Origin: Leucoraja erinacea | Lineage: Eukaryota | DNA: 64,000 nt | Reading direction: 5' to 3' | NCBI RefSeq assembly: GCF_028641065.1 | Contig: NW_026575814.1 | Location: forward strand, 1 to 64,000 | In this document: piece after piece, positions 41,079 to 62,665 of the stretch | Layout of the letters: the number at the start of each line of letters is the position of its first letter | Position numbering within the stretch: position 1 is the first letter of the stretch | Position numbers and translations under genes: made by a program | The notes under the pieces: generated by a model | Told to the model about the DNA's origin: nothing | Databases searched by the model: none | The model's input: only the letters and a program-made list of their open reading frames with translations

Positions 41079-41130
41079 ATGTTGCTGCTACTCGGTGCAG
41101 TGTGTCTATGCCTTCCCTGGGCATGTTCTG
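41079..41130 (+). CDS. MHC class I heavy chain, exon 1 (signal peptide MLLLLGAVCLCLPWACS)
   Basis: ATG, then 17 codons of hydrophobic signal-like peptide ending A-C-S, then G|GTAAGT phase-1 donor. G + AG of the next exon gives E, in frame with THSLQYYYT. Lies about 180 nt downstream of an X-Y promoter module. Absent from the ORF track. Confidence 0.85.
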
Positions 41131-41242
41131 GTAAGTGGAGTTCATTTCCCTAGCCTTCTCAACCCAGCAACCCTGGAGAACAGCAACAGGCCCCATTTCG
41201 GGTCGAGACCCTTGTATGAAAAAGTGGAGAGCCAGGTCAAAG

Positions 41243-41955
41243 GTACACAAAAATGCTGGAGAAACTCAGCGGGTGCAGCAGCATCTATGGAGCGAAGGAA
41301 ATAGGCAACGTTTCGGGCTGAAACCCTTCTTCAGACCAAAGATCTTATAGCTCTGCTGGGGGATGGGGGGTGGGGGGCGGGAAGGAGAATGGAAAAAGGA
41401 GGAGGAGGAGGAGCCCGAGGGCTGAGGGGTGAGAGGGCTGAGGAAGGGGAGGAGACAGCAAGGGCTAACAAAATTGGGAGAATTCAATGTTCATGCCCCC
41501 AGGATGCAGACTCCCCAAGCGGAAGATAAGCGGAAGGTAGTTGAGGCCAGTTCATTGACTATATTTAAGAGGGAGTTAGATGTGGCCCTTGTGGCTAAAG
41601 GGATCAGGGGGTATGTAGAGAAGGCAGGTACAGGATACTGAGTTGGGATCAGGGGGTATGGAGAGAAGGCAGGTACGGGATACTGAGTTGGATGATCAGC
41701 CATGATCACAGTGAATGGCGGTGCAGGCTCGAAGGGCCGAATGGCCTACTCCTGCACCTATTTTCTATGTTTCTAATATGAGGTGCTGTTCCTCCAATTT
41801 CCGGTGTTGCTCGCTGTGGCCATGGAGGGGACCCAGGACAGAGATGTCGGATGCGGAATGGGAGGGGGAGTTGAAGTGCTGAGCCACCGGGAGGTCAGCT
41901 TGGTTATAGCGGCGAAGCGATCGCCCAGCCTCCGCTTGGTCTCACCGATGTAAAT
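41243..41955 (-). mobile_element. Penelope-like element 3' part, split by a CR1 fragment (about 41525-41775), in MHC intron 1
   Basis: High similarity to 23547-24020, including the GIY-YIG C-terminus and hammerhead-like motif (41307-41335). Confidence 0.8.
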
Positions 41956-42052
41956 GCGTGGCAGGTAATAAATAGGTCAACCTGAATTTGGGAAAGATAT
42001 AATCATAGATTTATAGAGTACAAGAGCAGGCCCTATGGCCCACCCTGTCTAT

Positions 42053-42966
42053 AGTGGGGATGCACGTAAGGTCACTGGGTCATAGGGCGTGACGCACGGA
42101 GCCGCTCAATCCATCTGGAGGACATCCGTAACTTCTGGTACATGTTATTAATGCAAGAAACGCAAATTTTCCTACCTGTTAAAAACCGCCTAAATGTTGA
42201 ATTTTTGCGCTGAAAAAAATTGTTCAAGTCGGGGTAAGTGTGAGAGACATGTACCCAACTTTAGAATTCCAAACGTGAAGCGAAATGAAGGTAAAGAGAA
42301 GCGAGAACTGAAGGGACAACAACAGCTAAAGTGCTTGGCGAACATTGGCCGTGCAGATATCAGAATTGAAAATATTGGGAATTATCACGTTTGCTCACTG
42401 CATTTCATCAGCAGTAAGGCATTTTTGGGGTTTTTTCTTGATTCCTTTGGTATCTAAAAAGTCTCAGACTTATCTAAAAGTGATCAATCTGGCTGCAAAT
42501 TTTTCTTCAGATGCGTTTTCATTTTGTAAGTAAAAACCCACTTGAGAACCATGGGCCGATTTAAAAAATTTACAGCAAGATTTATCGCTTCTGAAACTTT
42601 TTAGATGCCAAAGGAATCAAGAAAAAACACAAATAATGGGCCTTAGTTGATGAAATGCAGTGAGCAAACGGTCAATGTTCGCCAAGCACTCTGGCTGTTG
42701 TTATCCCTTCAGCTCTCGCTTCTGTCTACCATCATTTCTCCTCACGTTTGGAATTCTGAAGTAGGCTAAATGTCTCTCACGCTTATCCCGATTTCCATAA
42801 TTATTTACAACCCAAAAAAATGACAATTTCAGCGGCTTTTAACGGGCCCACTACGCAGGAAACAATGGTCAGTGCCTACCTGCAGTTCATCGTGTGTAAT
42901 CCACTTGGCGTAGCCTAGCAACAGTACGGGTCATGGGTCGTGACCCGACTACCGTGAAACCTCCCT
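42053..42966. mobile_element. Non-autonomous DNA transposon (ISL2EU-like) with inverted THAP-like arms
   Basis: AT|AG...CT|AT termini with imperfect TIRs; internal inverted repeat about 42230-42468 vs 42591-42790; the arm encodes FRIPNV...HVCSLHFISS. Confidence 0.6.
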
Positions 42967-43080
42967 ATGCTGTTTATTGTGTTCCCATCTTTACTAGAGT
43001 CATACAGCAAGGAAACGGACCCTTCGGCGTAACTCCTTCATTCCCAGAAGCTGCCCCATCTAAGTTAGTCCCACTTATAA

Positions 43081-43682
43081 TAACCATATAACCATATAAC
43101 AATTACAGCACGGAAACAGGCCATCTCGACCCTTCTAGTCCGTGCCGAACACATAATCTCCCCTAGTCCCATATACCTGCGCTCAGACCATAACCCTCCA
43201 TTCCCTTCCCATCCATATAACTATCCAATTTATTTTTAAATGATAAAAACGAACCTGCCTCCACCACCTTCACTGGAAGCTCATTCCACACAGCTACCAC
43301 TCTCTGAGTAAAGAAGTTCCCCCTCATATTACCTCTAAACTTTAGTCCCTTAATTCTCATGTCATGTCCCCTTGTTTGAATCTTCCCTACTCTCAGTGGG
43401 AAAAGCTTTTCCACGTCAACTCTGTCTATCCCTCTCATCATTTTAAAAACCTCTATCAAGTCCCCCCTTAACCTTCTGCGCTCCAAAGAATAAAGCCCTA
43501 ACTTATTCAACCTATCTCTGTAACTTAGTTGCTGAAACCCAGGCAACATTCTAGTAAATCTCCTCTGTACTCTCTCTATTTTGTTGACATCCTTCCTATA
43601 ATTAGGCGACCAAAATTGTACACCATACTCCAGAATTGGCCTCACCAATGCCTTGTACAATTTTAACATCACATCCCAACTT
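43081..43682 (-). mobile_element. CR1 family B 3' end
   Basis: ORF 43163-43759. Confidence 0.9.
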
Positions 43683-45309
43683 GCCATGTTTGTCCCACAT
43701 CCCTTTAAAATGTTCCTCCCCAAGTACCTGACCAAGTATCTTTTAAATGCAGTTACCATGCCTGCCTCGATTACCTCCTCCGGCAGCTGGTTCTATATAC
43801 TACCACCCTCTGAGTGAAAAAGATAGCCCTCAAGTCCGTATTAAAAATACCCCTTCTCACCTTGAACATATATCCTCTTTTTGATTCCCCTACCCTCAGT
43901 AAAAAAACTCTACGTGCATTATGTCTATTCCCCTCGTGATTTTATGCACTCCATAAGATCAGCCCTCAGCCTGCAATCTGAACAATAAATTAGAAAATGT
44001 TGCAAGTACCCGGAGTCATACTGCATGGAAACAGGATGTTTGGCCCAACTTGCCCAAGGCGACCAACATGCACCATCTTCACTAGTCCTACCTTCCTGCG
44101 TTTGGCCAATATCCCTCTGAACCTTTCCTATCCGTGTACCTGTCCAAAAGTCTTTTACATGTTGTTATAGTACCTGCCTCAAATACCTCTTTTGGAAGCT
44201 TGTTCCATATAGCCATCACCTTCTGCATGAAAATGTTGCCCCTCAGATTCCTACAAGCACGGTGGCGCAGAGCTGCTGCTTTACAGCACCAGAGACATTG
44301 ATTCAATCCTGACTATGGGTGCTGTCTGTATGCAGTTTGTACATTTTCACCGTGACCGTGTGGGGTTTTTCGGGAGCTCTGGTTTCCTCTCACATCCCAA
44401 AGACATACAGGCTTGTGTGTGTTAATTGGCTTTGGCACCAATTGTAAATTGTCCCTAGTGTGTAGATAGTGCTAGTGTACTCTCTAGAATTTAGGAGATT
44501 GAGAGGGGATCTTATAGAAACTTACAAAATTCTTAAGGGGTTGGACAGGCTAGATGCAGGAAGATTGTTCCCGATGTTAGGGAAGTCCAGGACAAGGGGT
44601 CACAGCTTAAGGATAAGGGGGAAATCCTTTAAAACCGAGATGAGAAGAACTTTTTTTCACACAGAGAGTGGTGAATCTCTGGAACTCTCTGCCACAGAGG
44701 GTAGTTGAGGCCAGTTCATTGGCTATATTTAAGAGGGAGTTGGATGTGGCCCTTGTGGCTAGGGGGATCAGGGGGTATGGAGAGAAGGCAGGTACGGGAT
44801 ACTGAGTTGGATGATCAGCCATGATCATATTGAATGGCGGTGCAGGCTCGAAGGGCCGAATGGCCTACTCCTGCACCTAGTTTCTATGTCTATGTTTCTA
44901 TGTGTATGTTGATCGCTGGTCGGCACGGACTCGATGGGCCGAAGGGTCAGTTCCCACTCTGTATCTCTAACCTAAACTAAATTAATCTAAAAAAATTATT
45001 CCCCCTCTCACCTGACACCTATGAACTCCTGATTTCCTGATTCCTATACTCTGGGTAAAGAATCTGTGCATTCACCCCATCTATTCCCCTCATGATCTAG
45101 TGCCCCTCTTTAAGATCACCCCTCAACCTCCTGTGCTAACCCTAACCCTAACTCTAAAGTCCAACCTCTCCATGTAGCTCAGCCCCTCAAGTCTGAGCAA
45201 CATCCTCGTAAACCTTCTCTGTGGTCTTTAGAACTTAACGACATCCTTCCTATAGCAGGGTGACCAAAAGTGACCAGCCAAACTCCAAATATATCCTCTC
45301 CAACGCCTT

Positions 45310-46087
45310 ATAGAAACATAGAAATTAGGTGCAGGAGTAGGCCATTCGGCCCTTTGAGCCTGCACCGCCATTCAATATGATCATGGCTGATCATCCAACT
45401 CAGTATCCCGTACCTGCCTTCTCTCCATACCCCCTGATCCCCTTAGCCACAAGGGCCACATCTAACTCCCTCTTAAATATAGCCAATGAACTGGCCTCAA
45501 CTACTCTCTGTGGCAGAGAGTTCCAGAGATTCACCACTCTCTCTGTGTGAAAAAAGTTCTTCTCATCTCGGTTTTAAAGGATTTCCCCCTTATCCTTAAG
45601 CTGTGACCCCTTGTCCTGGACTTCCCTAACATCGGGAACAATCTTCCTGCATCTAGCCTGTCCAACCCCTTAAGAATTTTGTAAGTTTCTATAAGATCCC
45701 CTCTCAATCTTCTAAATTCTAGAGAGTATAAACCAAGTCTATCCAGTCTTTCTTCATAAGACAGTCCTGACATCCCAGGAATCAGTCTGGTGAACCATCT
45801 CTGCACTATGGCAATAATGTCCTTCCTCAGATTTGGAGACCAAAACTGTACGCAATACTCCAGGTGTGGTCTCACCAAGACCCTGTACAACTGCAGTAGA
45901 ACCTCTCTGCTCCTATACTCAAATCCTTTTGCAATGAAAGCTAACATACCATTCGCTTTCTTTACTGCCTGCTGCACCTGCATGCCTACCTTCAATGACT
46001 GGTGTACCATGACACCCAGGTCTCGCTGCATCTCCCCCTTTCCCAATCGGCCACCATTTAGATAATAGTCTGCTTTCCCGTTTTTGC
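45310..46087 (-). mobile_element. CR1 LINE family A 3' end
   Basis: ORF 45531-46046 with tail. Confidence 0.9.
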
Positions 46088-46375
46088 ATCCTCGATGAAT
46101 CCTCGATGAAGTACTTGCTCCTTATTTTAAACCTACGCCTCCTTATTTAGAGTCTTCATTATGGGGAAACGTTTCTTACTCTCAATCCTATCTACGCCTC
46201 TCATAATGTTGTACGCCTCCATTAGGGTTCCCCCTTCACATTCCACTGCTCCAAGGAAAACAAACCCAGCCTCTCTGGACTCTCCTCACAACAGCTTCAT
46301 CCCAGGCAACATCCCGATGAATCTCCTCAGTGCTTTCTCTAATGTAGCCACATATTCCAGTAGTGTGGAGACTAT

Positions 46376-46600
46376 AGTCCCTGTCCCACTTAGGAAACCT
46401 GAATGGAAACCTCTGGAGACTTTGCGCCCCACCCAAGGTTTCCGAGCGGTTCCCAGAGGTTTTTGTCAGTCTCCCTACCTGCTTCCACTACCTGCAACCT
46501 CCGGCAACCACCTGCAACCTCCGGGACCGCACGGAAACCTTGGGTGGGGCGCAAAATCTCCAGAGGTTTCTGTTCAGGTTTCCTAAGTGGGACAGGGGCA
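46376..46600. mobile_element. MITE, same family as 32042-32266
   Basis: Long TIRs with CCCTGTCCCACTTAGG...CCTAAGTGGGACAGGGG ends. Confidence 0.8.
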
Positions 46601-46614
46601 TAAACCTGAACGGA

Positions 46615-47370
46615 AACCATATAACCATATAACAATTACAGCACGGAAACAGGCCATCTCGACCCTTCTAGTCCGTGCCGAACACATAATCTCCCCTAGT
46701 CCCATATACCTGCGCTCAGACCATAACCCTCCATTCCCTTCCCATCCATATAACTATCCAATTTATTTTTAATTGATAAAAACGAACCTGCTTCCACCAC
46801 CTTCACTGGAAGCTCATTCCACACAGCTACCACTCTCTGAGTAAAGAAGTTCCCCCTCATGTTACCCCTAAACTTCAGTCCTTTAATTCTCATGTCATGT
46901 CCCCTTGTTTGAATCTTCCCTACTCTCAGTGGGAAAAGCTTTTCCACGTCAACTCTGTCTATCCCTCTCATAATTTTAAAAACCTCTATCAAGTCCCCCC
47001 TTAACCTTCTGCGCTCCAAAGAATAAAACCCTAACTTGTTCAACCTTTCTCTGTAACTTAGTTGCTGAAACCCAGGCAACATTCTAGTAAATCTCCTCTG
47101 TACTCTCTCTATTTTGTTGACATCCTTCCTATAATTAGGCGACCAACATTGTACACCATACTCCGGAATTGGCCTCACCAATGCCTTGTACAAATTTAAC
47201 ATTACATCCCAACTTCTATACTCAATGCTCTGATTTATAAAGGCCAGCACACCAAAAGCTTTCTTTACCACCCTATCTACATGAGATTCCACTTTCAGGG
47301 AACTGTGCACAGTTATTCCCAGATCCCTCTGTTCACCTACATTCTTCAATTCCCTACCATTTACCATGTA
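46615..47370 (-). mobile_element. CR1 family B 3' end
   Basis: ORF 46696-47493. Confidence 0.9.
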
Positions 47371-48079
47371 AAACCTGTGGAGATTTACATTTTCACCTCT
47401 CTGTTTTAATAATTTTCTTCCAATGGAGATGGAGTCGAAGCAGGGTCCCGACCTGAAACGTCGCCTGCCCCCCACAGATACTGCCTGGCCCACTGAGTTA
47501 CTCCAGCATTTTGTGTTTTGCTCAGGATTCCAGCCTCTGCAGTTCCTTGTGTCTCCATTGAGATGAAGGCGTTCATTTCTTGAACTTTCTCTGCCCGTTC
47601 GGTTGGATAAACTTGGATTGTGTTCTCCGAAACATTGGAGGTTGAAGGGAGGTAGATGAAATCATGATCCTTAGACAGGGTAGATAGACACAGAACCTTC
47701 TTCCCAGAGTTAAAATATCCAATATTAGAGGGCATAGCTATAAGGTGAGAGGGGGAAAGATTAATGAAGATAGGCTGGGTAAGATTTTTACACAGAGAGT
47801 GGTAGGTGCCGGGAACGCACTGTTAGTGGTGGTGGTGGAGGCAAATATGATAGTGCCATTTAAGAGGCTTTTAGGTAGGCACTTGTAAGTGAAAATAATA
47901 GAGGGATATGCCCCATGTACAGGTAGATTAGATCAGTTTAACTTGGCATCAGGTTTGGCACAAACATTGTGAGTCCAAGGGCCTGGTCCTGTAATGTACT
48001 ATTCTATGTTCCATGTTTGTTTAGTTGGGGAATGGCGGGCAGGAGATAGAGGAGGGGAGATGTGTGGAAAGAGGGCACC

Positions 48080-48893
48080 ATTTAATGCTGATAAGTGTGA
48101 GGTGCTACATCTTGGCAGGACAAATCAAAATAGGACGTACATGGTAAATGGTAGGGAATTGAAGAATGTAGGTGAACAGAGGGATCTGGGAATAACTGTG
48201 CACAGTTCCCTGAAAGTGGAATCTCATGTAGATAGGGTGGTAAAGAAAGCTTTTGGTGTGCTGGCCTTTATAAATCAGAGCATTGAGTATAGAAGTTGGG
48301 ATGTAATGTTAAAATTGTACAAGGCATTGGTGAGGCCAATTCTGGAGTATGGTGTACAGTTTTGGTCGCCTAATTATAGGAAGGATGTCAACAAAATAGA
48401 GAGAGTACAGAGGAGATTTACTAGAATGTTGCCTGGGTTTCAGCAACTAAGTTACAGAGAAAGGTTGAACAAGTTAGGGCTTTATTCTTTGGAGCGCAGA
48501 AGGTTAAGGGGGGACTTGATAGAGGTTTTTAAAATGATGAGAGGGATAGACAGAGTTGACGTGGAAAAGCTTTTCCCACTGAGAGTAGGGAAGATTCAAA
48601 CAAGGGGACATGACATGAGAATTAAGGGACTGAAGTTTAGGGGTAACATGAGGGGGGAACTTCTTTACTCAGAGAGTGGTAGCTGTGTGGAATGAGCTTC
48701 CAGTGAAGGTGGTGGAGGCAGGTTCGTTTTTATCATTTAAAAATAAATTGGATAGTTATATGGATGGGAAGGGAATGGAGGGTTATGGTCTGAGCGCAGG
48801 TATATGGGACTAGGGGAGATTATGTGTTCGGCACGGACTAGAAGGGTCGAGATGGCCTGTTTCCGTGCTGTAAATGTTATATTATATTATATT
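48080..48893 (+). mobile_element. CR1 family B 3' end, ending about 45 nt upstream of the MHC alpha1 exon
   Basis: ORF 47994-48695 with tail. Confidence 0.9.
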
Positions 48894-48938
48894 ACCATGT
48901 TATCTCATTCTGAGGTTGTGTTGTGTTGTGATTTACAG

Positions 48939-49202
48939 AGACACACTCACTGCAATATTACTACACCTCGATGATCGGGAGTGTGGACCTTCCTGAGTTT
49001 GTGCACATCGGAGTGTTGGATGGCGTTCAGATAACCTACTTTGACAGCAAAACCGAGGAGGACATTGCACGCCAGCCATGGATGGAGAGAGCCCTGGGAA
49101 GTGACTACTGGGACAAGGAGACCCAGAGATTGATCAATCGACACAAGTTGTACATGGCCAATGTCCAGATCGCAATGCAACGATCTAACCGCAGCAAGAT
49201 GG
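48939..49202 (+). CDS. MHC class I heavy chain, exon 2 (alpha1 domain)
   Basis: TTTACAG| acceptor, 264-nt phase1-1 exon, G|GTGCGT donor. Encodes ETHSLQYYYTSMIGSVDLPEFVHIGVLDGVQITYFDSK...PWMERALGSDYWDKETQ...MQRSNRSKM with class I hallmarks H3, Y7, D29, Y59-W60, R84 and the N86 glycosylation sequon (NRS). Confidence 0.95.
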
Positions 49203-49347
49203 GTGCGTGCATTCCCAGTGCTTGATTCACACGGCATTCAGATTCAGATTCAATCTTTATTGTCATTGTGCAGTGTACAGTACAGAGACAACAAAATGCA
49301 GTTAGCATCTCACCCAGAAGAGCGAACATAGAATAATGAGCAATAAG

Positions 49348-50036
49348 CATGTTTGACTAATCTTCTTGAATTTTTTGAAGAGGTTACTAGAGAAATTGAC
49401 GAGGGTAAAGCAGTGGATGTTGTCTATATGGACTTTAGTAAGGCCTTAGACAAGGTTCCTCGTGGAAGGTTGGTTAAGAAGATTCAACTGTTGGGTATAA
49501 ATGCAGGAATAGCAAGATGGATTCAACAGTGGCTGAATGGGAGAAGCCAGAGGGTAATGGTGGATGGCTGTTTATCGGGTTGGAGGCAGGTGACTAGTGG
49601 GGTGCCTCAGGGATCTGTGTTGGGTCCTTTGTTGTTTGTCATGTACATCAATGATCTGGATGAAGGTGTGGTAAATTGGATTAGTAAGAATGCAGATGAT
49701 ACCAAGATAGGGGGTGTTGTGGATAATGAAGAGGATTTCCAAAGTCTACAGAGTGATTTAGGCCATTTGGAAAAATGGGCTGAAAGATGGCAGATGGAGT
49801 TTAATACTGATAAATGTGAGGTGCTACACCTTGGCAGGACAAATCAAAATAGGACGTACATGGTAAATGGTAGGGAATTGAAGAATACAGTTGAACAGTG
49901 GGATCTGGGTATAACCGTGCATAGTTCCTTCAAGGTGGAATCTCATATAGATAGGGTGGTAAAGAAAGCTTTTGGTGTGCTGGCCTTTATAAATCAGAGC
50001 ATTGAGTATAGAAGTTGGGATGTAATGTTAAAATTG
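49348..50036 (+). mobile_element. CR1 family B RT-core fragment inside a Rex/Babar copy
   Basis: TNLLEFFE...DVVYMDFSKA...GVPQGSVLGPLLF...(N)ADDTK; lacks the 3' end. Confidence 0.88.
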
Positions 50037-51231
50037 AGAGCAGTCCTTGGCGATGCTGAGCGTCCTTCGCAGACATCGCTTGCTTTGGACAGACTCAATT
50101 GAGGGGAGTGAGGAACCGGTGATGCGTTGGGCAGTTTTCACCACCCTCTGCAGTGCTTTACGGTCGGAGACAGAGCAGTTGCCATACCATACTGTGATAC
50201 AGTTGGTAAGGATGCTCTCGATGGTGCAGCGGTGGAAGTTCACCAGAATCTGAGAAGGCAGATGGACCTTCTTCAGTCTCCTCGGGAAGAAGAGACGCTG
50301 ATGAGCCTTCTTGACCAGAGTTGAGGTATTGTGGGTCCAAGAGAGGTCATCGGAGATGTTGACCCCCAGGAACCTGAAGCTGGAAACACGTTCCACTCAT
50401 GCCATGGGCAATGGTGTGCACAGACATGTTAGGAGTTCAGTGTAGTTTAGAGATACAGCGTGAAAACAGGCCCTTCTGCCCAGCAAGTCCGCAACGCCAA
50501 TTGACCCATACACCTGTACTTCTTTGGGGTGTGGGAGGAAACCGAACATCGCGTAGAAAATCCACGCAGGTCACGGGGAGAAAGTAAACCTTCTCTGACC
50601 TCTTCCTCAGTTTTTCTCTTCCTTCCAAGAGCAGGGTGACCAAAACTCCAAATCAGTCATTCGAGGAATGCCAGCATAATGAAGGATGAGTCTCACCCCA
50701 GTCATTCCCTCTTCTCCCCTTTCCCGTTTGGCGAGAGGCACGGAAGTGTGAAAACGCACACCGCCTGAATCAGGGACAGTTTCTTCAAAGGCTGTTTAGA
50801 GAGAATTGAGCCATTCTATCACCAACTAGATAGCAGGCCTGAGTCACCACCTATCTCATTGGAGACCTTCGGACTATCTTTAATTGAACTAAACATTATT
50901 CCCTTTATCTGTACACTATCGCCTTTTTGCTGATTGGATAGCATGCAAGAAAAAGCGTCTTAATATACCTCAGTATTCTTGAGGTGTATAAAATCGCGAG
51001 AGAAATAGATCGGGTATACTAACAGTCTCTTGCTCAGAGCAGGGGAATCGAGAACCAGAGGACATAGGTTTAAGCTAAAGGGGGGAAAGATTCAATAGGA
51101 ATCTGAGGGGTAACTTTTTCATTCATGGGTGTATGGAATGAGCTGTCAGAGGAGGTTGTTGATGTCAGGATGATTGCAACGTTTAAGAAACAATGAGATG
51201 GACCGATGGATAGGTCAGGTTTAGAGTGATA

Positions 51232-51462
51232 TAATAATAATAATAATTTGTTTATAGGGACAGTGCATATTAATTAACATTTGCATGTAAATATGCAAGA
51301 TTGTAGCCAATCAGTAGCTAATTTCCATCTCTAGTCCCAGGCAAAGGTAGGTGGAAGTGTCTTGCCCAAGGACACAACGACAGTACACACTCCAAGCAGG
51401 ATTCGAACCGGCAACCTTCAGGTTGCCAGCCGAACACTTAGCCCATTGCGCCATCTGTCGTC
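51232..51462 (-). mobile_element. tRNA-derived SINE with CORE-like motif and (TTA)n tail
   Basis: Minus strand: A box TGGCGCAATGG, B box GGTTCGAATCC, CCTTGGGCAAG motif and (TTA)n tail. Confidence 0.65.
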
Positions 51463-51671
51463 CTAACGCAGGCAGGTGGGGCTAGTGCAGATGGGAATAT
51501 TGGTCGGTGTGGTCAAGTTGGGCCAAAGGGCCTGTTTCCATGCTGTATGAGTCTATGACTTGACAATAATTATAAATTAAAATAATATGTGGCCTCACCA
51601 ACATTTTGTACAACTGTTGGTAGTGTAACAGGATGTTGGGTTCCATGCTGAATTGGGCAGGTAATGGTGGG

Positions 51672-52333
51672 TCAAGTCAAGTCAAGTCAAGTTTATTTGT
51701 CACATACACATACGAGATGTGCAGTGAAATGAAAGTGGCAATGCTCGCGGACTTTTGTGCAAAAGACAAACAACAAAACAACCAAACAAATTATAAACAC
51801 AATCATAACACACTTATTCTTATTCATAATAAATAATAGAAGGAAAAACGTTCTGTAGAGTTAGTCCCTGGTGAGAAAGGCGTTTACAGTCCGAATTGCC
51901 TCTGGGAAGAAACTCCTTCTCAACCTCTCCGTTCTCACTGCATGGCAACGGAGGCGTTTGCCTGACCGTAGCGGCTGGAACAGTCCGTTGCAGGGGTGGA
52001 AGAGGTCTCTCATGATTTTGTTTGCTCTGGAGTTGCACCTCCTGTTGTATAGTTCCTGCAGGGGGGTGAGTGAAGTTCCCATAGTGCGTTCGGCCGAACG
52101 CACTACTCTCTGCAGAGCCTTCTTGTCCTTGGCAGAGCAATTCCCAAACCAGATGGTAATGTTCCCGGACAAGATGCTTTCCACCGCCGCTGCGTAGAAG
52201 CACTGTAGCATCCTCGGAGACACTCTGAATTTCCTCAATTGCCTGAGGTGGTAAAGGCGCTGCCTTGCCTTACTCACCAGTGCTGAGGCGTGTGATGACC
52301 ATGTCATATCCTCAGAGATGTGGACTCCCAGAT
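51672..52333 (-). mobile_element. Rex/Babar-type LINE 3' end, (GACTT)n-tail family
   Basis: ORF 51861-52307 (KARQRLYHLRQLRKF...ESILSGNITIWFG). Confidence 0.82.
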
Positions 52334-52928
52334 AAATAACATAGAAACATAGAAATTAGGTGCAGGAGTAGGCCATTCGGCCCTTCGAGCCTGCACCGCC
52401 ATTTAATATGATCATGGCTGATCATCCAACTCAGTATCCCGTACCTGCCTTTTCTCCATACCCTCTGATCCCCTTGGCCACAAGGGCCACATCTAACTCC
52501 CTCTTAAATATAGCCAATGAACTGGCCTCAACTACCCTCTGTGGCAGAGAGTTCCAGAGATTCACCACTCTCTGTGTGAAAAAAGTTCTCCTCATCTCGG
52601 TTTTAAAGGATTTCCCCCTTATCCTTAAGCTGTGACCCCTTGTCCTGGACTTCCCCAACATCGGAAACAATCTTCCTGCATCTAGCCTGTCCAACCCCTT
52701 AAGAATTTTGTAAGTTTCTATAAGATCCCCTCTCAATCTCCTAAACTCTAGAGAGTATAAACCAAGTCTATCCAGTCTTTCTTCATAAGACAGTCATGAC
52801 ATCCCAGGAATCAGTCTGGTATCTTCCTGACATCCCAGGAATCATCTTGTAGATGCCACCCCTGGGTTGGTGGATGTAGAGGATACGTGTGAGTTTCGGA
52901 CAGCTATTGACATTCTCTCCATGTCCAG

Positions 52929-53204
52929 GGGTGAACTACCTGCAGTATACGTCGGGCTGCAGCGTCACGGGCAACGGGATAGTGAGTGGCGTGCGCCAGT
53001 ACGCCTTCAACGGCCAGGACCTGATCAGTTTCGACTTTGAGCAGTCCATCTGGGTGACCGCCTCGCCCTTGGCCTTGAGCACGCGGGACAAGTGGAACAG
53101 CGACACAGCCAACAACATCTACAAGAAGCATTACACCCAGACGATCTGCGTGGAATGGTTGCAGAAATACCTCAAGTACGGGCACTCCATGCTGTCTCGC
53201 AAAG
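52929..53204 (+). CDS. MHC class I heavy chain, exon 3 (alpha2 domain)
   Basis: TCCAG| acceptor, 276-nt phase1-1 exon, G|GTAGGT donor. Encodes GVNYLQYTSGC...QYAFNGQDLISFD...STRDKWN...HYTQTICVEWLQKYLKYG with C101/C164, T143, K146, W147, Y159, W167 and Y171. Confidence 0.96.
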
Positions 53205-53270
53205 GTAGGTCAGGCTGTCGCCTCCGCCCACCAATCCTACCCCCCTCTTGTTCCGCCACCTCCTCTATCA

Positions 53271-53358
53271 GTCTGAAGAAGGGTCTCGACCCGAAACGTC
53301 ACCCATTCCTTCTCTCCAGAGATGCAGCCCTGTCCCGCTGAGTTACTCCAGCATTTGT
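53271..53358 (+). ncRNA. Penelope-derived short repeat with minimal type I hammerhead-ribozyme-like core
   Basis: CTGAAGA-A-GGGTC-TC-GACCC-GAAA-CG-TC: core boxes, perfect 5-bp stem II and palindromic ACGT stem III; stem I is weak. Confidence 0.5.
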
Positions 53359-53490
53359 CTTACCTCCTCCATCACCCTTGGTTTGGTCACCAGGATGGGA
53401 AGTCACACCTATTTCTGGTTGACCAAAGGCCACACTTGCTGTGTGCACCTGCATTATCTACCCCCCTTGCCACTTGGTGTGTAGACCCTT

Positions 53491-54101
53491 ATAACCATAT
53501 AACCATATAACAATTACAGCACGGAAACAGGCCATCTCGGCCCTACAAGTCCGTGCCGAACAAATGTTTTTTCCCCTTAGTCCCACCTGCCTGCACTCAT
53601 ACCATAACCCTCCATTCCCTTCTCATCCATATGCCTATCCAATTTATTTTTAAATGATACCAATGAACCTGCCTCCACCACTTCCACTGGAAGCTCATTC
53701 CACACTGCTACCACTCTCTGAGTAAAGAAGTTCCCCCTCATATTACCCCTAAACTTCTGTCCCTTAATTCTGAAGTCATGTCCTCTTGTTTGAATCTTCC
53801 CTATTCTCAAAGGGAAATGCTTGTCCACATCAACTCTGTCTATCCCTCTCATCATTTTAAAGACCTCTATCAGGTCCCCCCTTAACCTTCTGCGCTCCAG
53901 AGAATAAAGACCTAACTTATTCAACCTATCTCTGTAACTTAGTTGTTGAAACTCAGGCAACATTCTAGTAAATCTCCTCTGTACTCTCTCTATTTTGTTG
54001 ACATCCTTCCTATAATTGGGCGACCAAAATTGTACACCGTACTCCAGATTTGGTCTCACCAATGCCTTGTACAATTTTAACATTACATCCCAGCTTCTAT
54101 A
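53491..54101 (-). mobile_element. CR1 family B 3' end
   Basis: ORF 53577-54290. Confidence 0.9.
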
Positions 54102-54525
54102 GCGAGGAAGGGTCCTTATGAGGAAGGGTCCCGACGTTGCTGATCTATTTCCTCCACAGATGCTTCCTGACCTGTTGAGTCGCTCCAACACTTTGGGATT
54201 TGCATCGAACCCCAAACTGCCTTCATGGGTGACTCCACGCCCTCTCGCTGTCTCCCCCATAGTATGGGAACCACTTCCCCACCCCCACACACGCTGGGGT
54301 CTTCCCTAACATTAGTCCACTGAGTTATAATGTGTGTTCAGCCTTCATCAGTCAGGGCATTGGGCTGAAGAGTCAGGAAGTCGTGATGCAGCTTTGTAAA
54401 ACATTGGTTACGCCGCATTAGAGCATGGTGTGCTGTTCTCGTCGCCCCATTACAGGAAAGATGTGGAGGCTTTGCAGAGAGTGCAGAAGGGGTTTACCAG
54501 AATGTTGGCTGGATTAGGGGTATTC

Positions 54526-54748
54526 TGCCCCTGTCCCACTTAGGAAACCTGAACGGAAACCTCTGGAGATTTTGCACCCCACCCAAGGTTTCCGTGCGGT
54601 TCCCGGAGGTTGCAGGTGGTTGCCAGAGGTTGCAGGTAGTGGAAGCAGGTAGGGAGACTGACGAAAACCTCCGGGAACCTCCTGGAACCGCACGGACACC
54701 TTGGGTCTCCAGAGGTTTCCGTTCAGGTTTCCTAAGTGGGACGGGCAA
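54526..54748. mobile_element. MITE, same family, opposite orientation
   Basis: Same TIRs; internal GGTTGCAGGTGGTTGCC is reversed. Confidence 0.78.
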
Positions 54749-57700
54749 TAGCTATAGGGGGAGGTTGGACAAAATTGGATTGTTTTCTCTGGAGCTCTGG
54801 TGGTTGAGAGAAGATGTGATCGAAGAATATAAAGTGATGAGGGACATAGATAGAGTTGCAAATCAGAATCCTTTTTCCAATTTGTAAATGTCAAAGACTG
54901 ATGAAGGGTCCTGACTTTAAAAGTCTCCCATAATAATAATAATAATAATAATAAGCCTTTATTGTCATTGTACTTAGAAATACAGTTAAATTAGACCTAC
55001 TCCTGCTCAGTGCAACCAAAACAAGTCCAAACATGACAAAAACACATCCAATACATTCAATGGACAAGGACTTTAAGGCTTTTGCCTTCCATCACAGTGA
55101 GGTAGACTCATGGTGGTGGATGTTAAACTGTGTTCATTGTGTGTTCTGTTATTTTATTCTCTGTCATGACTGCAAGGCACGTAATTTCGTTCAAACCAAA
55201 GGTTTGAATGACAATAAAGGATACTTTATAGTTGGGATTAATGTTAAAATTGTACAAGGCATTGGTGAGGCCAATTCTTATATAATGTTGCCTGCTTGAA
55301 ATAGTAGAGATACATTACGTCTTTAATTATCACAGGGAATGGAGGGTTATGGTCTGAGCGCAGGTATATGGGACTAGGGGAGATTATGTGTTCGGCACGG
55401 ACTAGAAGGGTCGAGATGGCTGTTTTCCGTGCTGAAATTGTTATAGGTTATATATACTTTATATACCGTTATATAACTAGCCTTGAAATAGATAGATACA
55501 CTAATGATCAAAGAGAACATTGCACTGGGAGAATATTACACTTTAAAATTTAATGAATACTTTAAAATAATTTAAAAAATATATATGTTTTCTGAGTGAT
55601 CTGTTTTATAGTGGAATGGATGACAGCATTAATAGAAACATAGAAAATAGGTGCAGGAGGAGCCCATTCCGCCCTTCGAGCCAGCACTGCCATTCATTGT
55701 GATCATGGCTGATCGTCCCCTATCAATAACCCATGCCTGCCTTCTCCCCATATCACTAGCCCCGAGAGCTCTATCTAACTCTCTCTTAAATCCATCCACT
55801 CTCATGTCGTGTGGATATTTGAGGAATTTAGAGTTCTGATGGCCCAGGGAAAGAAACTGTTCTTGAGTCTGTTGGTCGGGCTTTTAGAAACATAGAAACA
55901 TAGAAAATAAGTGCAGGAGTAGGCCATTTGACCCTTCGAGCCTGCACCGCCATTCAATATGATCATTGCTGATCATCCAACTCAGTATTCCGTACCTGCC
56001 TTCTCTCCATACCCCCTGATCCCCTTAGCCACAAGGGCCACATCTAACTCCCTCTTAAATATAGCCAATGAACTGGCCTCGACTACCTTCTGTGGCAGAG
56101 AATTCCACAGATTCACCACTCTCTGCGTGAAAAATGTTTTTCTCATCTCGGTCCTAAAAGAATTCCCCCTTATCCTTAAACTGTGACCCCTTGTTCTGGA
56201 CTTCCCCAACATCGGGAACAATCTTCCTGCATCTAGCCTGTCCAACCCCTTAAGAATTTTGTTAGTTTCTATAAGATCCCCCCCCCCCTCAATCTTCTAA
56301 ATTCTAGCGAGTACAAGCCGAGTCTATCCAGTCTTTCTTCATATGAAAGTCCTGACATCCCAGGAATCAGTCTGATTAACCTTCTCTGCACTCCCTCTAT
56401 GGCAAGAATAATAGCGTTCATCAGTCAGAATGATGAATATAAAAGATGGGAAGTCGTATAGCAGTTGGAAAAGTTTGATTGGGTCTCATTTGGAGTATTG
56501 TGTGCCATTGTTCCCGATGTTGGGGAAGTCCAGAACAAGGGGTCACAGTTTAAGGATAAGGGGGAAATCTTTTAGGACTGAGATGAGGAAAACATTTTTC
56601 ACACAGAGAGTGGTGAATCTCTGGAATTCTCTGGCACAGAAGGTAGTTGAGGCCACAGTTCATTGACTATATTTAAGAGGGAGTTAGATGTGGCCCTTGT
56701 GGCTAAAGGGATCAGGGGGTATGGAGAGAAGGCAGGTACAGGATACTGAGTTGGATGATCAGCCATGATCATATTGAATGGTGGTGAAGGGCCGAATGGC
56801 CTACTCCTGCACCTATTTTCTATGTATCTCTGTCTATGTCTATTCTAGTCGCTTGTTAAAGAAAGGATGTGGTGAAGAGGTTCACATGTTGTATAAACAT
56901 TCAGTTTAATATTTAAACACTCATATTAGTACAAAAGTGCAAAGTGTGTAAACACATTCACTGCCAAGGGAAGACTAGCGCCATCGTCTGTTGCAACCCA
57001 TCACCTGACCACCCAGATCGGCGTTGATTTGTCGACCCAGATCACGCAAGTTCACGCTTGTGCTTGAGCTCGACGAATCACGGTTCGAGACCAACGTGGC
57101 TCGGCCACAAGATGGCGCCACAGTGGGAGGCCAATTGGGCAGTATGCAGTAGAGATAACCATATAACCATATAACAATTACAGCACAAAATAGGCCAGTC
57201 TCGACCCTTCTAGTCCGTGTTGCCTGGGTTTCAGCAACTAAGTCCCAGAGACCTGCGCTCAGACCATAGGGCTTTATCCATTTGGAGCCCAGAAGGTTAA
57301 GGGGGGACTTGATAGAGGTTTTTAAAATGATGAGAGGGAAAGACAGACCTGACGTCCACCAGCTTTTCCCTGGAAGCTCATTCCACAGATTCAAACAAGG
57401 GGACTGAGTAAAGAAGTTCCCCCTGATGTTACCCCTAAACTTCAGTCCCTTAATTCTCATGTCATGTCCCCTTGTTTGAATCTTCCCTACTCTCAGTGTG
57501 AAAAGCTTTTCCACGTCAACTCTGTCTATCCCTTCATCATTTTAAAAACCTCTATCAAGTCCCCCCTTAACCTTCTGCGCTCCAAAGAATAAAGCCCTAA
57601 CTTGTTCAACCTTTCTCTGTAACTTAGTTGCTGAAACCCAGGCAACATTCTAGTAAATCTCCTCTGTACTCTCTCTGTGACATCCTTCCTATAATTAGGC

Positions 57701-59293
57701 GACCAAAATGGTACACCATACTCCAGAATTGGCCTCACCAATGCCTTGTACGCATTTTAGGCATTACATCCCAACTTCTATACTCAGAAAGATAGACCAG
57801 AAAGATGCCTGGATAGAGGGTGTCAGCAAAAAGGAGATTTGCAAGACAAGTGTTTGGTCCCTAGAGTGTGCTGCCTGGAGAAATGGTGGAGATAAACATG
57901 ATGGCAATGTTTAAAAGACATTTAGACAGGCACAGAAGGAACAGAGGAATGGAGGGATTCAAACCCTGTGCTGGCAGGTGTTATTAGTTAAAATTGGCAT
58001 CATGAACAGCACAGACATGACGGGCCGAAGGGCCTGTTTCTATGCTGTATTGTCCTATATCCTACACCAATCCCATATTTTCATCTTGTTCCTCCAGATT
58101 GCCCCACTCATCTTAACACTTGAGACTATTTGGTCACTTAATTTTAGGATATGGGAAGAAACCCATATCAGAAGGTTAAGGGGGGACTTGATAGAGGTTT
58201 TTAAAATGATGAGAGGGATAGACAGAGTTGACGTGGAAAAGCTTTTCCCACTGAGAGTAGGGAAGATTCAAACAAGGGGACATGATATGAGAATTAAGGG
58301 ACTGAAGTTTAGGGGTAACATGAGGGGGAACTTCTTTACTCAGAGAGTGGTAGCTGTGTGGAATGAGCTTCCAGTGAAGGTGGTGGAGGCAGGTTCGTTT
58401 TTATCATTTAAAAATAAATTGGATAGTTATATGGACGGGAAGGGAATGGAGGGTTATGGTCTGAACACAGGTATATGGGACTAGGGGAGATTATGTGTTC
58501 GGCACGGACTAGAAGGGTCGAGATGGCCTGTTTCCGTGCTGTAATTGTTATATGGTTATATGGTTAAACCGGAGTACCTGGTGGCAAGCCATGGACTCCC
58601 AGGGAGAATTTGCAAACTCCATGCAGGCAGCAATGGGGTCGGGATCGAACCTGGGTGTCAGGAGCTCTCAACCTGTTGCGCTGTTGACCTCCACATATTG
58701 TGCACTCGAGACCCCCTCCATGATTATCCTCCACAGTTATTATTAGAGATACAGCGTGGAAACGGACCACTTCGGTCAACTGAGTCCGTGCCGCCCGCCG
58801 ATCCCTGTACACTAATACTATCCCATGCACAAGGACAATTTACTATTTTACCAAGCCAATTAACCTGCAAACCTGTACATCTTTGGAGTGCGGGAAGAAA
58901 CTGTAGCTCTTGGGGGCGGAAACCCATGCAGGTTACGGGGAGAACGTACAAACTCCATACATACAGCGCCTGTAGTCGGGGTCAAACCCGGGTCTGTGGC
59001 GCTGTAAGGCAGTAAACGGTGCTAGAGGAACTCGGTGGAACAGGCAGTATAATGGCAGTTTTTACAACATTCTCAAAGTCCAACTTCGATAGCCGTTAAT
59101 TATCGGAGGTATAGCCTAACGCACTCACGACACACATAAAACAGCAAAGATTAATCTCCCAGACGTCGTTTCTTGATTAATTGCTATTTATTGAAGTAAT
59201 ACCAAACAAAGAAATAACTCATAACTTTCTGTTCTTTATCACTGTTCCATTCACATCATCTAAATCACATAAAAGCTTCTTATAAAGGTATGT

Positions 59294-59903
59294 CATAGAA
59301 ACATAGAAACATAGTAACATAGAAATTAGGTGCAGGAGTAGGCCATTCGGCCCTTCGAGCCTGCACCGCCATTCAATATGATCATGGCTGATCATCCAAC
59401 TCAGTATCCCGTACCAGCCTTCTCTCCATACCCCCTGATCCCCTTAGCCACAAGGGCCACATCTAACTCCCTCTTAAATATATCCAATGAACTGTGGCCT
59501 CAACTACCCTCTGTGGCAGAGAGTTCCAAAGATTCACCACTCTCTGTGTGAAAAAAGTTCTTCTCATCTCGGTTTTAAAGGATTTCCCCCTTATCCTTAA
59601 GCTGTGACCCCTTGTCCTGGACTTCCCCAACATCGGGAACAATCTTCCTGCATCTAGCCTGTCCATCCCCTTAAGAATTTTGTAAGTTTCTATAAGATCC
59701 CCTCTCAATCTTCTAAATTCTAGAGAGTATAAACCAAGTCTATCCAGTCTTTCTTCATAAGACAGTCCTGACATCCCAGGAATCCGTCTGGTGAACCTTC
59801 TCTGCACTCCCTCTATGGCAATAATGTCCTTCCTCAGATTTGGAGACCAAAACTGTACGCAATACTCCAGGTGTGGTCTCACCAAGACCCTGTACAACTG
59901 CAG
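59294..59903 (-). mobile_element. CR1 LINE family A 3' end
   Basis: ORF 59463-59897 with tail. Confidence 0.9.
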
Positions 59904-60227
59904 TCTCGTAACGTGTGTGTGATCGTGGGAGAAAACTGGTTCCCCTCATTCTCCGACACCAAACTGAAACTTCTAATCTGAGAGTCTGCGCCAGACGCCT
60001 CTAACAAAAGAACACACCCCGACTATGTATCAAATCCCACCGACAAAAGTACAGGCAGATTCAAAACTAAAACTGAAAATATATAGACATGATGATAATA
60101 CTAACAAACTTAATTGCTCCGACAGGCAGCATCGGTGGTGGGAATGGGCAGATGGAGTTGTGGTTCAGAGAGTGTTCCTGCCCATTGTCCTCCACGGATG
60201 CTGCCTGACCCTCTGGGTTTGTCCAGC

Positions 60228-60510
60228 CCGGTGGCGCAGTGGTGGAGTTGATGCCTTACGGCACCAGAGACCCAGGTTTGATCCTGACTATGGGCGCTGA
60301 ATGTACGGAGTTTGTACCGTCTCTCTGTGACTGCGTAGGTTTCCACCAGGTGCTCAAGTGTCCTCCCACACTACAAAGACGTACAGGTTAATTGGCTCGG
60401 TAAAAATCGTAACTTGTCCCTAGTGTGTGTGTAGCATAGTGCTAGTGCTGATCGCTGGTTGATGCAGACTCAGTTGGCCAAAAGGCCTGTTTCCGCACTG
60501 TATCTCTAAA
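60228..60510 (+). mobile_element. HE1/V-SINE-like tRNA-derived SINE
   Basis: A box GGTGGCGCAGTGG, B-box-like GGTTTGATCC, central GGAGTTTGTAC..TCTC..GTG and CR1-like 3' end. Other copies at about 17305-17515 (-), 26736-26915 (+), 36975-37278 (+), 44257-44980 (+, split by CR1), 50435-50590 (-) and 58742-59015 (-). Confidence 0.7.
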
Positions 60511-60578
60511 GTCTAATGAGCCTCTCCAATATTAACTCAAGATTCCAGTGCCTATGGCTCCCTGTATCTCCATGTCTA

Positions 60579-61200
60579 AGTATAGGAGCAGAGAGGTTCT
60601 ACTGCAGTTGTACAGGGTCTTGGTGAGACCACACCTGGAGTATTGCGTACAGTTTTGGTCTCCAAATCTGAGGAAGGACATTATTGCCATAGAGGGAGTG
60701 CAGAGACGGTTCACCAGACTGATTCCTGGGATGTCAGGACTGTCTTATGAAGAAAGACTGGATAGACTTGGTTTATACTCTCTAGAATTTAGAAGATTGA
60801 GAGGGGATCTTATAGAAACTTACAAAATTCTTAAGGGGTTGGACAGGCTAGATGCAGGAAGATTGTTCCCGATGTTGGGGAAGTCCAGGACAAGGGGTCA
60901 CAGCTTAAGGATAAAGGGGAAATCCTTTAAAACCGAGATGAGAAGAACTTTTTTCACGCAGAGAGTGGTGAATCTCTGGAACTCTCTGCCACAGAGGGTA
61001 GTTGAGGCCAGTTCATTGGCTATATTTAAGAGGGAGTTAGATGTGGCCCTTATGGCTAAGGGGATCAGGGGGTATGGAGAGAAGGCAGGTACGGGATACT
61101 GAGTTGGATGATCAGCCATGATCATATTGAATGGCGGTGCAGGCTCGAAGGGCCGAATGGCCTACTCCTGCACCTAATTTCTATGTTTCTATGTTTCTAT
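60579..61200 (+). mobile_element. CR1 LINE family A 3' end flanked by a 77-bp direct duplication
   Basis: ORF 60548-61102; duplicated flanks 60501-60577 and 61198-61274. Confidence 0.9.
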
Positions 61201-61294
61201 CTCTAAAGTCTAATGAGAATTTCCAATATTAACTCAAGATTCCAGTGCCTATGGCTCCCTGTATCTCCATGTCTCTCTTGCTCTTTTCTCTCAG

Positions 61295-61570
61295 CTGTTC
61301 CAGATGTGTGGGTCTACTCCAGGAGGTCTCCCGATGGTCAGAAACGGGTTCTCCACTGCCTGGCCACTGGCTTTTTCCCGCAGACCATCAACATGAGTTG
61401 GTTCAGGGATGGGCGGCCTGTCCCCGCCAACGAAAACTCTGGCGTTCTACCCAACCACGACGGCACCTATCAGATGAGGGTAACTCTGCTGACGGAGCCT
61501 GCAGAGAGACGGGAGCACATCTGCCGCGTGTGGCACAGCAGCAGGCCCGAAGGAATGGTCGTTGTCTGGG
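61295..61570 (+). CDS. MHC class I heavy chain, exon 4 (alpha3 C1-set Ig domain)
   Basis: Polypyrimidine tract with TCAG| acceptor, 276-nt phase1-1 exon, G|GTAAGT donor. Encodes LHCLATGFFPQTINMSWFRDG...GVLPNHDGTYQ...HICRVWHSS...VW, typical of class I alpha3. Confidence 0.95.
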
Positions 61571-61854
61571 GTAAGTGATTGGAGATCAGCGCATGTTCCC
61601 TTAACCATGAAGAACGACTTGTACAACCGTAGCTATGCATCCCAACTTCCATACTCAATGAAAGACGCAAAGTGCTAAAGCAACTCAGCTGCTCAGGCAG
61701 CATCTCCGGAGATCATGGATAGGTCACATTTTGGGTCGGGACCCATTTCCACACTGAAGAAGCCCGACCCACAACGTCACACATCCTTTTTCTCCCGAGT
61801 TAGTCCAGCACGTTGTGTCTATTTTTGATATAACCCAGCTCTTTGTTTTTTTCA

Positions 61855-62665
61855 ATGTGAGGTTATCCATTTTGGTGGCAAAAACAGGAAAGCAGACTAT
61901 TATCTAAATGGTGGCCAATTGGGAAAGGGGGAGATGCAGCGAGACCTGGGTGTCATGGTACACCAGTCATTGAAGGTAGGCATGCAGGTGCAGCAGGCAG
62001 TAAAGAAAGCGAATGGTATGTTAGCTTTCATTGCAAAAGGATTTGAGTATAGGAGCAGAGGGGTTCTACTGCAGTTGTACAGGGTCTTGGTGAGACCACA
62101 CCTGGAGTATTGCATACAGTTTTGGTCTCCAAATCTGAGGAAGGACATTATTGCCATAGAGGGAGTGGAGAGTCTGTTCACCAGACTGATTCCTGGGATG
62201 TCAGGACTGTCTTATGAAGAAAGACTGGATAGACTTGGTTTATACTCTCTAGAATTTAGAAGATTGAGAGGGGATCTTATAGAAACTTACAAAATTCTTA
62301 AGGGGTTGGACAGGCTAGATGCAGGAAGATTGTTCCCGATGTTAGGGAAGTCCAGGACAAGGGGTCACAGCTTAAGGATAAGGGGGAAATCCTTTAAAAC
62401 CGAGATGAGAAGAACTTTTTTTCACGCAGAGAGTGGTGAATCTCGGGAACTCTCTGCCACAGAGGGTAGTTGAGGCCAGTTCATTGGCTATATTTAAGAG
62501 GGAGTTAGATGTTGCCCTTGTGGCTAAGGGGATCAGGGGGTATGGAGAGAAGGCAGGTACGGGATACTGAGTTGGATGATCAGCCATGATCATATTGAAT
62601 GGCGGTGCAGGCTCGAAGGGCCGAATGGCCTACTCCTGCACCTAATTTCTATGTTTCTATGTTTC
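61855..62665 (+). mobile_element. CR1 LINE family A 3' end
   Basis: ORF 61919-62473 with tail; extra 3' fragments at 62723-63038. Confidence 0.9.

What the first reader, a model, noticed from the sequence alone, without database searches (positions are those of the whole stretch)
41079..61570. Intact MHC class I gene keeps the classical peptide-anchor set but loses both H93-D119 salt-bridge residues
Seen: four exons with canonical phase-1 GT-AG junctions splice into an open leader-alpha1-alpha2-alpha3 frame spanning 20 kb of TE-filled introns. Aligning by eye to HLA-A2 numbering, the peptide-terminus residues Y7, Y59, R84 (non-mammalian type), T143, K146, W147, Y159 and Y171 are all present, as are the N86 glycan, both disulfides and the beta2m contacts Q96, G120 and D122. 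However, the usual H93 and D119 are both Asn (GVNYLQ, AFNGQD), position 123 is Leu rather than F/Y, and the start of alpha2 (YTSGC) departs from the usual xMYGC. Inference: a peptide-binding-competent but divergent chondrichthyan class I, either one of the described non-classical lineages (e.g. UDA-like) or an unnamed one.
Basis: partly seen in the sequence, partly recalled or inferred. Interest (0 to 1): 0.75.

Follow-up and report, generated by a model that had tools for sequence, protein, structure and literature searches.

The report
Skate UDA, known nonclassical MHC gene
This is the intact, expressed skate copy of UDA, an already described immune gene of sharks, rays and chimaeras that likely displays a narrow, fixed set of peptides; its odd residues are shared by the whole UDA family, so the finding is ordinary.

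Summary
Three more exons (transmembrane, two cytoplasmic) lie just past the window, and RNA reads join a1-a2-a3 at the predicted sites. The gene is UDA. A published supplement lists 'little_skate,_Leer_UDA', which matches a1-a3 at 264 of 272 residues (read by eye). The gene is single-copy, nests in a shark-ray-chimaera orthologue clade (bootstrap 100), and has the CD1-like UFA gene as its neighbour. N93+N119 marks the lineage: 37 of 159 aligned proteins carry both, all UDA-type, as do the three published UDA references. L123 and S99 also occur in classical-type molecules. Remaining leads: a near-invariant, basic groove (H24, R66, R70, R114, K156) that predicts acidic ligands, and an a3-skipped isoform seen in a skate and a shark record. 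This scan noted skate UDA before in another genome. Interest is low.

The parts
41079..41130 (+). Exon 1, leader peptide (17 aa), phase-1 donor
   Evidence: identical to the RefSeq model P0013; a contig aligns from 48938 with 66 unmatched letters upstream (letters not shown)
48939..49202 (+). Exon 2, alpha1 domain (H3, Y7, D29, D45, Y59, R84, N86 sequon)
   Evidence: 1 difference from published Leer-UDA a1 (by eye); reads join its 3' end to exon 3
52929..53204 (+). Exon 3, alpha2 domain (N93, Q96, C101, N119, G120, D122, L123, T143, K146, W147, Y159, C164, Y171)
   Evidence: 2 differences from Leer-UDA a2 (by eye); RNA depth confined to the exon, both junctions read
61295..61570 (+). Exon 4, alpha3 Ig C1-set domain
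   Evidence: 5 differences from Leer-UDA a3 (by eye); 24 reads of run X16 join exon 3 to its start
41131..61294 (.). Introns 1-3 (7.8, 3.7, 8.1 kb), mostly repeats with LINE-like reverse-transcriptase fragments
61571..64000 (+). Start of intron 4. The gene continues beyond the window on G000:C633 (whose coordinates continue the window's): exon 5, TM, 68428-68559; exon 6, 30-nt cytoplasmic, 71438-71467 (skipped in isoform P0012); exon 7, cytoplasmic with stop, 73452-73573
   Evidence: the seven exons translate exactly to P0013 (383 aa); predicted TM helix 297-320

Best explanation
The gene is the single-copy skate orthologue of the cartilaginous-fish nonclassical MHC class I lineage UDA, intact and spliced, encoding a membrane-anchored heavy chain that likely pairs with beta2-microglobulin and likely presents a narrow, conserved set of peptides rather than a diverse repertoire. 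Shown: identity with published UDA, exon structure, TM and tail exons, a1-a2-a3 splicing, single copy, a groove far more conserved than the rest of the molecule. Inferred: both groove ends are closed and grip peptide termini through Y7/Y59/Y159/Y171 and R84/T143/K146/W147. The groove is lined by invariant basic residues (H24, R66, R70, R114, K156) with D45/E63 at the B pocket, so the ligands probably carry acidic or phosphorylated side chains. The complex is probably read by an invariant T-cell or NK-type receptor, in the manner of HLA-E or the teleost Z lineage. The N93/N119 pair is an ancient lineage-wide swap that probably replaces the charged pair with a neutral hydrogen-bonding pair and need not disturb folding.
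For: Published 'little_skate,_Leer_UDA' differs at 1, 2 and 5 residues in a1, a2 and a3 (264/272, by eye), and 7 of these 8 differences recur among skate variants. Published Gici_UDA matches P0032 and Cami_UDA is near-identical to P0065 (by eye). Tree of 55 proteins: the 19-member clade of batoids, sharks and holocephalans has UFBoot 100 (a1-a3), 96 (a1) and 98 (a2). Next-best paralogues in the genome are 44%, 41% and 42% identical for a1, a2 and a3. N93+N119 occurs in 37 of 159 proteins, all at least 44.6% identical to the query, while all others are at most 39.8%. Invariant columns among 19 elasmobranch sequences: groove 27/37, other a1a2 36/143, a3 23/92. Reads: 9 join a1-a2 and 24 join a2-a3 in run X16. 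The downstream neighbour is UFA-type, and PMC10751288 places UFA in the cluster with UDA. FcRn also has Y93/N119 and binds beta2m (established knowledge).
Against: No ligand, beta2m pairing or receptor was tested here, and the nearest solved structures are only 34-35% identical. The a3 tree alone does not recover the 19-member clade. Only 21 of 28 non-anchor groove positions are strictly invariant; Y59 is replaced in 2 of 19 elasmobranch sequences and in the holocephalans, and K146 in 1 of 19. The basic excess is modest (6 K/R vs 2-3 D/E) and one classical-type skate protein has 5 vs 3. The 37-position pocket list is recalled, not taken from a call. Position 27 is V, where the classical-type shark and skate proteins have Y. 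The original UDA paper could not be read.
Confidence: 0.97

Rival explanations
1. An unnamed chondrichthyan class I lineage defined by loss of H93/D119.
For: The automatic RefSeq names of the orthologues do not say UDA, and the best solved structures are only 34-35% identical.
Against: 97% identity to the published little skate UDA; the published nurse shark and elephant shark UDA have the same N93/N119.
Confidence: 0.01
2. A classical (UAA-type), polymorphic peptide presenter.
For: Eight peptide-terminus anchors, both disulfides and the glycan are kept. Variants exist: 3-13 differences from P0013 in 12 transcript-derived skate proteins.
Against: UAA-type proteins form a separate clade at 36-40% identity. 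None of 9 variable a1a2 sites and none of the 4 amino-acid-changing read variants is a groove position, although 0 of 9 alone is not significant (about 0.13 by hand). The groove is conserved across the subclass.
Confidence: 0.01
3. It is UDA, but binds a non-peptide anionic ligand (MR1-like metabolite, nucleotide or phospho-antigen), or works mainly as a structural or receptor molecule like FcRn or HFE.
For: Invariant basic residues and bulky Y9, Y97, Y/F116 and Y155 on the groove; the function is unknown ('yet unknown functions', PMC10751288); FcRn shares N119.
Against: Both peptide-terminus networks are kept in nearly all elasmobranch sequences, which is unexpected if no peptide were bound. 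The CD1-like UFA-type sequences lost them.
Confidence: 0.2
4. Pseudogene or secreted form.
For: Low read depth in X15, X19 and X22 (about 0-3 over the exons); repeat-filled introns.
Against: Seven exons give an open 383-aa frame with TM and tail; spliced reads; 12 transcript-derived full-tail proteins.
Confidence: 0.005

Closest known systems
UDA lineage of cartilaginous fish (Leer-UDA, Gici-UDA, Cami-UDA; sequences in Supplemental File 10 of PMC10751288; first description Almeida et al. 2020, seen only as a reference-list title)
   Same: 264/272 identical to Leer-UDA; single copy; N93, N119, L123; classical anchors; next to UFA
   Different: Only allele-level differences (8 residues, none at a groove position)
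Classical chondrichthyan UAA (for example the shark structure PDB 6LUP)
   Same: Fold (Foldseek E=3.6e-28), exon plan, peptide-terminus anchors, R84
   Different: 35-40% identity; H93/D119 kept; separate clade; groove residues vary, whereas UDA's are near-fixed
Teleost Z1 lineage (PMC4364491, section read)
   Same: Works-like analogue: anchors kept and groove positions almost completely conserved, presumed fixed ligand
   Different: Different lineage; that paper found no Z in sharks; the one Z row keeps H93 and D119
Shark UFA and UGA (PDB 8GM8, 9CH4), CD1-like
   Same: Single- or low-copy, MHC-linked nonclassical class I; UFA is the next class I gene on this contig
   Different: Lipid-binding by report (PMC12562908, passage); UFA-type sequences lack the anchors; 26-34% identity
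HLA-E / Qa-1 (recalled)
   Same: Oligomorphic peptide-binding nonclassical class I with a restricted ligand set; functional analogy only
   Different: Mammalian, not orthologous; no ligand or receptor is given for UDA in the passages seen

Membership tests
UDA (chondrichthyan nonclassical class I) | Sequence identity to named UDA references | tested here: met
   1, 2 and 5 differences from Leer-UDA in a1, a2 and a3 (compared by eye)
UDA (chondrichthyan nonclassical class I) | Nests in a clade spanning elasmobranchs and holocephalans | tested here: met
   UFBoot 100 whole ectodomain, 96 a1, 98 a2; a3 alone not recovered
UDA (chondrichthyan nonclassical class I) | Single copy (PMC10751288, PMC12562908) | tested here: met
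   One locus per domain; next hits at most 44% identical (these searches score only the best candidates)
UDA (chondrichthyan nonclassical class I) | Eight of nine peptide-terminus residues kept (recalled from the 2020 abstract, not read) | tested here: met
   Y7 Y59 R84 T143 K146 W147 Y159 Y171 kept; L at 123
UDA (chondrichthyan nonclassical class I) | Other 28 groove residues conserved across elasmobranchs (recalled as 'perfectly') | tested here: inconclusive
   21 of 28 strictly invariant in 19 sequences, the rest mostly single outliers or conservative swaps; the position list is recalled
UDA (chondrichthyan nonclassical class I) | In the MHC-Ib cluster with UFA, b2m and brd2 (PMC10751288) | tested here: inconclusive
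   UFA-type neighbour 49 kb downstream. No further C1-set hit on this contig, so b2m was not found on it. The sawfish gene with P0005's name lies 75 kb from B2M (linked by name only)
UDA (chondrichthyan nonclassical class I) | Mono- or oligomorphic, low expression (recalled) | tested here: inconclusive
   No groove change among 13 skate sequences or read variants, but low power; depth about 0-35 in the runs laid, not compared with UAA
Classical UAA | Clusters with UAA and keeps H93/D119 | tested here: not met
Classical UAA | Tight linkage to TAP and PSMB8/9 | not tested
   No targeted search for these genes was run
UFA / UGA (CD1-like) | High identity to 8GM8 or 9CH4; anchors lost | tested here: not met
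   34% to UGA 9CH4; the 8GM8 match belongs to the neighbour gene
MHC class I heavy chains | beta2m association and ligand binding | not testable with these tools
   Q96, G120 and D122 kept, V at 27; needs biochemistry

The most novel reading that the evidence does not exclude
UDA makes, besides the full chain, a conserved alpha3-less isoform (a1-a2 joined straight to the TM exon, as recalled for MR1B) in both skates and sharks, and its invariant basic groove (H24, R66, R70, R114, K156) presents an ancient phospho- or acidic-peptide ligand to an innate-like receptor. That would be a roughly 450-million-year-old fixed-ligand surveillance system with a beta2m-independent form. Basis: P0003 (skate, 5 contigs) and P0061 (epaulette shark RefSeq isoform X2) both lack a3. 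Against: the 24 loose-ended a2 reads in X16 gave the a3 start as consensus (agreement 0.98), and all-phase-1 exons skip easily as noise.
Probability: 0.12. Interest if true: 0.55.

Novelty: already known. Interest (0 to 1): 0.12.

Why it matters
As a discovery it does not matter: the lineage, the skate member and even the N93/N119 sequences are in print. What remains is modest. N93+N119 is a handy diagnostic for UDA among automatically misnamed class I genes (37 UDA-type proteins carry both, 0 of 122 others). The function of UDA is called unknown in the passages seen, and the conserved basic groove plus the a3-skipped isoform give concrete things to test. A fixed-ligand, peptide-binding nonclassical class I in the oldest jawed vertebrates would show that HLA-E- or Z-like surveillance is as old as adaptive immunity.

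Tried and rejected
The original UDA paper (Almeida 2020) and the UEA paper (Almeida 2021) are not held. Their alignments and supplements may already discuss N93/N119, the basic groove and splice forms, so no claim of 'not in print' is made for these. Paper searches for the H93/D119 salt bridge (0 papers), for UDA accessions (no relevant hit), for UFA with lipid (0 papers) and for UDA splice forms (2 listings, neither opened) gave nothing useful. The W-category paper's supplements held no UDA text. The representative-protein search never ran. The run search listed no holder on record as RNA; this is not used as evidence. The first read lay was swamped by repeat-derived reads and its joint table did not list the a1-a2 junction; the narrower lay did show it. 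Rejected: L123 as a mark unique to this gene; 'YTSGC' as aberrant; pseudogene; secreted form; UFA/UGA identity. The PDB entry titled 'UDA01' (8KCV) is not this lineage; it scores like other distant class I molecules. The 800-870-aa RefSeq models (P0001, P0004, P0050) are read as two neighbouring genes merged by annotation (UDA + UFA), not as a true fusion; in this genome the two lie 49 kb apart with a stop codon between. No complex prediction with beta2m was run, since a textbook pair would pass by likeness. The Fisher P of 1e-7 ignores relatedness and column dependence and is only indicative.
Full report
Observation. Each junction is GT-AG in phase 1, and the spliced frame is open for 289 residues. 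The protein has Pfam MHC_I and C1-set domains and a predicted class I fold whose best match is the shark class I structure 6LUP at 35% identity. Numbering from the H-2Kb alignment, consistent with the HLA-A2 row of a published alignment, confirms Y7, Y59, R84, T143, K146, W147, Y159, Y171, the N86 sequon, C101/C164, Q96, G120 and D122, and also N93, N119 and L123. H3 and D29 are kept. That H93 and D119 form a salt bridge is recalled; a paper search did not retrieve it. Introns are 66-82% repeated within the contig.

The whole gene. The window is the start of a 259,686-base contig. Three further exons follow at 68428-68559 (TM), 71438-71467 and 73452-73573 in contig coordinates. The seven exons translate exactly to RefSeq little skate protein P0013, and skipping exon 6 gives P0012. 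In run X16, 68 reads were laid on the a2 exon with zero depth in the flanking intron; 9 loose ends carry the end of a1 and 24 carry the start of a3. X15 (3 reads) and contigs of X1 and X2 agree. Depth over the exons was only about 0-3 in X15, X19 and X22. Twelve unnamed 355-aa proteins on 1.1-1.3-kb contigs contain a1 through the tail without introns (15 of the 32 cluster members were listed), which I read as spliced transcripts. The gene is therefore neither a pseudogene nor secreted.

What it is. Homologue searches returned close relatives from 21 named species of skates, rays, sharks and a chimaera, two of them as partial proteins. In trees of 55 proteins (chosen from 159 aligned; redundant variants left out), the 19 such sequences form one clade with UFBoot 100 for a1-a3, 96 for a1 and 98 for a2. 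The a3 tree alone does not recover the full clade. The genome holds one copy: next-best hits are 44%, 41% and 42% identical for a1, a2 and a3. The name comes from Supplemental File 10 of PMC10751288 (parts 97 and 98 read; of the main text I saw passages only), which lists 'little_skate,_Leer_UDA'. Read by eye it differs from the window's protein at 1, 2 and 5 positions, 264 of 272 identical, and 7 of the 8 differences recur among the skate variants. Its 'Gici_UDA' matches P0032, and 'Cami_UDA' is near-identical to P0065. That paper and a review (PMC12562908, passages) describe UDA as a single-copy nonclassical lineage; the paper calls the functions of these lineages unknown. The next class I gene on the contig (about 122.8-159.2 kb) matches only PDB 8GM8 in a2, which is shark UFA (run with the whale shark orthologue P0051), and the paper places UFA in the cluster with UDA. 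In the paper's sawfish table, the only gene with P0005's name lies 75 kb from B2M (linked by name only). b2m was not found on this contig.

The odd residues. N93 with N119 is found in 37 of 159 aligned proteins (redundant variants included). All 37 are UDA-type by identity (at least 44.6% against at most 39.8% for the rest), 19 of them also by the tree, and 114 of the others have H/D. The three published UDA references carry both Asn, so this is a lineage signature older than the shark-chimaera split, and the sequences showing it are in print. FcRn has Y93/N119 in the same alignment and binds beta2m (established knowledge), so losing the pair need not block assembly. L123 differs from the F or Y of the 4 published UAA references, but occurs in Gici-UBA and in 5 of 5 classical-type shark and skate proteins compared. 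S99 occurs in H-2Kb and chicken BF2.

How it likely works. At 37 groove positions (pocket list recalled; the concept is in PMC4364491, section read), 27 are invariant among 19 elasmobranch sequences, against 36 of 143 other a1a2 positions and 23 of 92 in a3. Among 13 skate sequences none of 9 variable a1a2 sites is in the groove (positions 5, 7 and 9 were not covered), and the 4 amino-acid-changing read variants of 13 lie in the 104-109 loop. This test has low power, the sequences may come from more than one skate species, and a control set of 10 classical-type skate proteins had only 4 of 24 variable sites in the groove. The fixed groove residues include H24, R66, R70, R114 and K156, kept as H, K, R, R, K in holocephalans, with D45 and E63 at the B pocket; there are 6 basic against 2-3 acidic residues in 6 of 7 UDA proteins counted. 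The best-supported reading is a beta2m-associated surface molecule that grips peptide ends like a classical class I but binds a narrow, ancient, probably acidic ligand set for an invariant receptor, as proposed for teleost Z1. Identity, structure and splicing are shown. Ligand, beta2m pairing and receptor are inferred, and I put about 0.2 on a non-peptide ligand.

Residual lead. Two records join a2 directly to the TM exon: skate P0003 (5 contigs) and epaulette shark RefSeq isoform P0061. The exon phases allow this in frame. The X16 loose ends showed only the a3 junction as consensus, so the short form is at most minor there. I could not see the original UDA paper or its supplements, which may already report it.

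Verdict. Observation confirmed, lineage already known (UDA), and the skate member is already in print. Interest 0.12.

Noticed in passing
window 34528-35346, minus strand: Intronless 272-codon open frame for a GNAT acetyltransferase (Pfam Acetyltransf_1, E=6e-13; NAT8-like by recall), 5.7 kb upstream of UDA and pointing away from it. A partial copy lies near 19176-19457, and the family has 15 matches in the genome, several with stops.
   Followed up: partly
G000:C633:122775-159170 (L016-L019): Second class I gene, UFA-type (CD1-like): no peptide anchors, and a short hydrophobic C-terminus with almost no cytoplasmic tail, which may be a GPI-type anchor (inferred).
   Followed up: partly
P0001, P0004, P0050: RefSeq models in a skate, zebra shark and whale shark merge UDA with the downstream UFA into one 800-870-aa protein. 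This is likely an annotation merge, but it shows that the UDA-UFA adjacency is conserved.
   Followed up: partly
P0003 and P0061; exons at window 52929-53204 and G000:C633:68428-68559: alpha3-skipped UDA isoform in a skate (5 contigs) and in epaulette shark (RefSeq isoform X2); not seen in the X16 reads.
   Followed up: partly
P0065, P0069, P0070: Holocephalan UDA has E at 59 in place of the N-terminal anchor Y59, and N45, while keeping N93/N119 and the basic groove.
   Followed up: partly
window 15391-16117: About 700 bases of a short tandem repeat that leaves long open frames in several phases; shorter copies of the same element occur near 31.9-32.3 kb and 46.2-46.6 kb.
   Followed up: no
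window 1182-1859, minus strand; G000:C633:258196-259089: Gag-like and integrase-like fragments of LTR retroelements (by eye), among many LINE reverse-transcriptase fragments.
   Followed up: no
G000 contigs C1159, C1416, C1256, C1104, C732, C1132, C1147 and others: The other class I loci of this genome lie on many separate contigs rather than one; two a2 hits (C1132, C1147) contain a stop codon.
   Followed up: no
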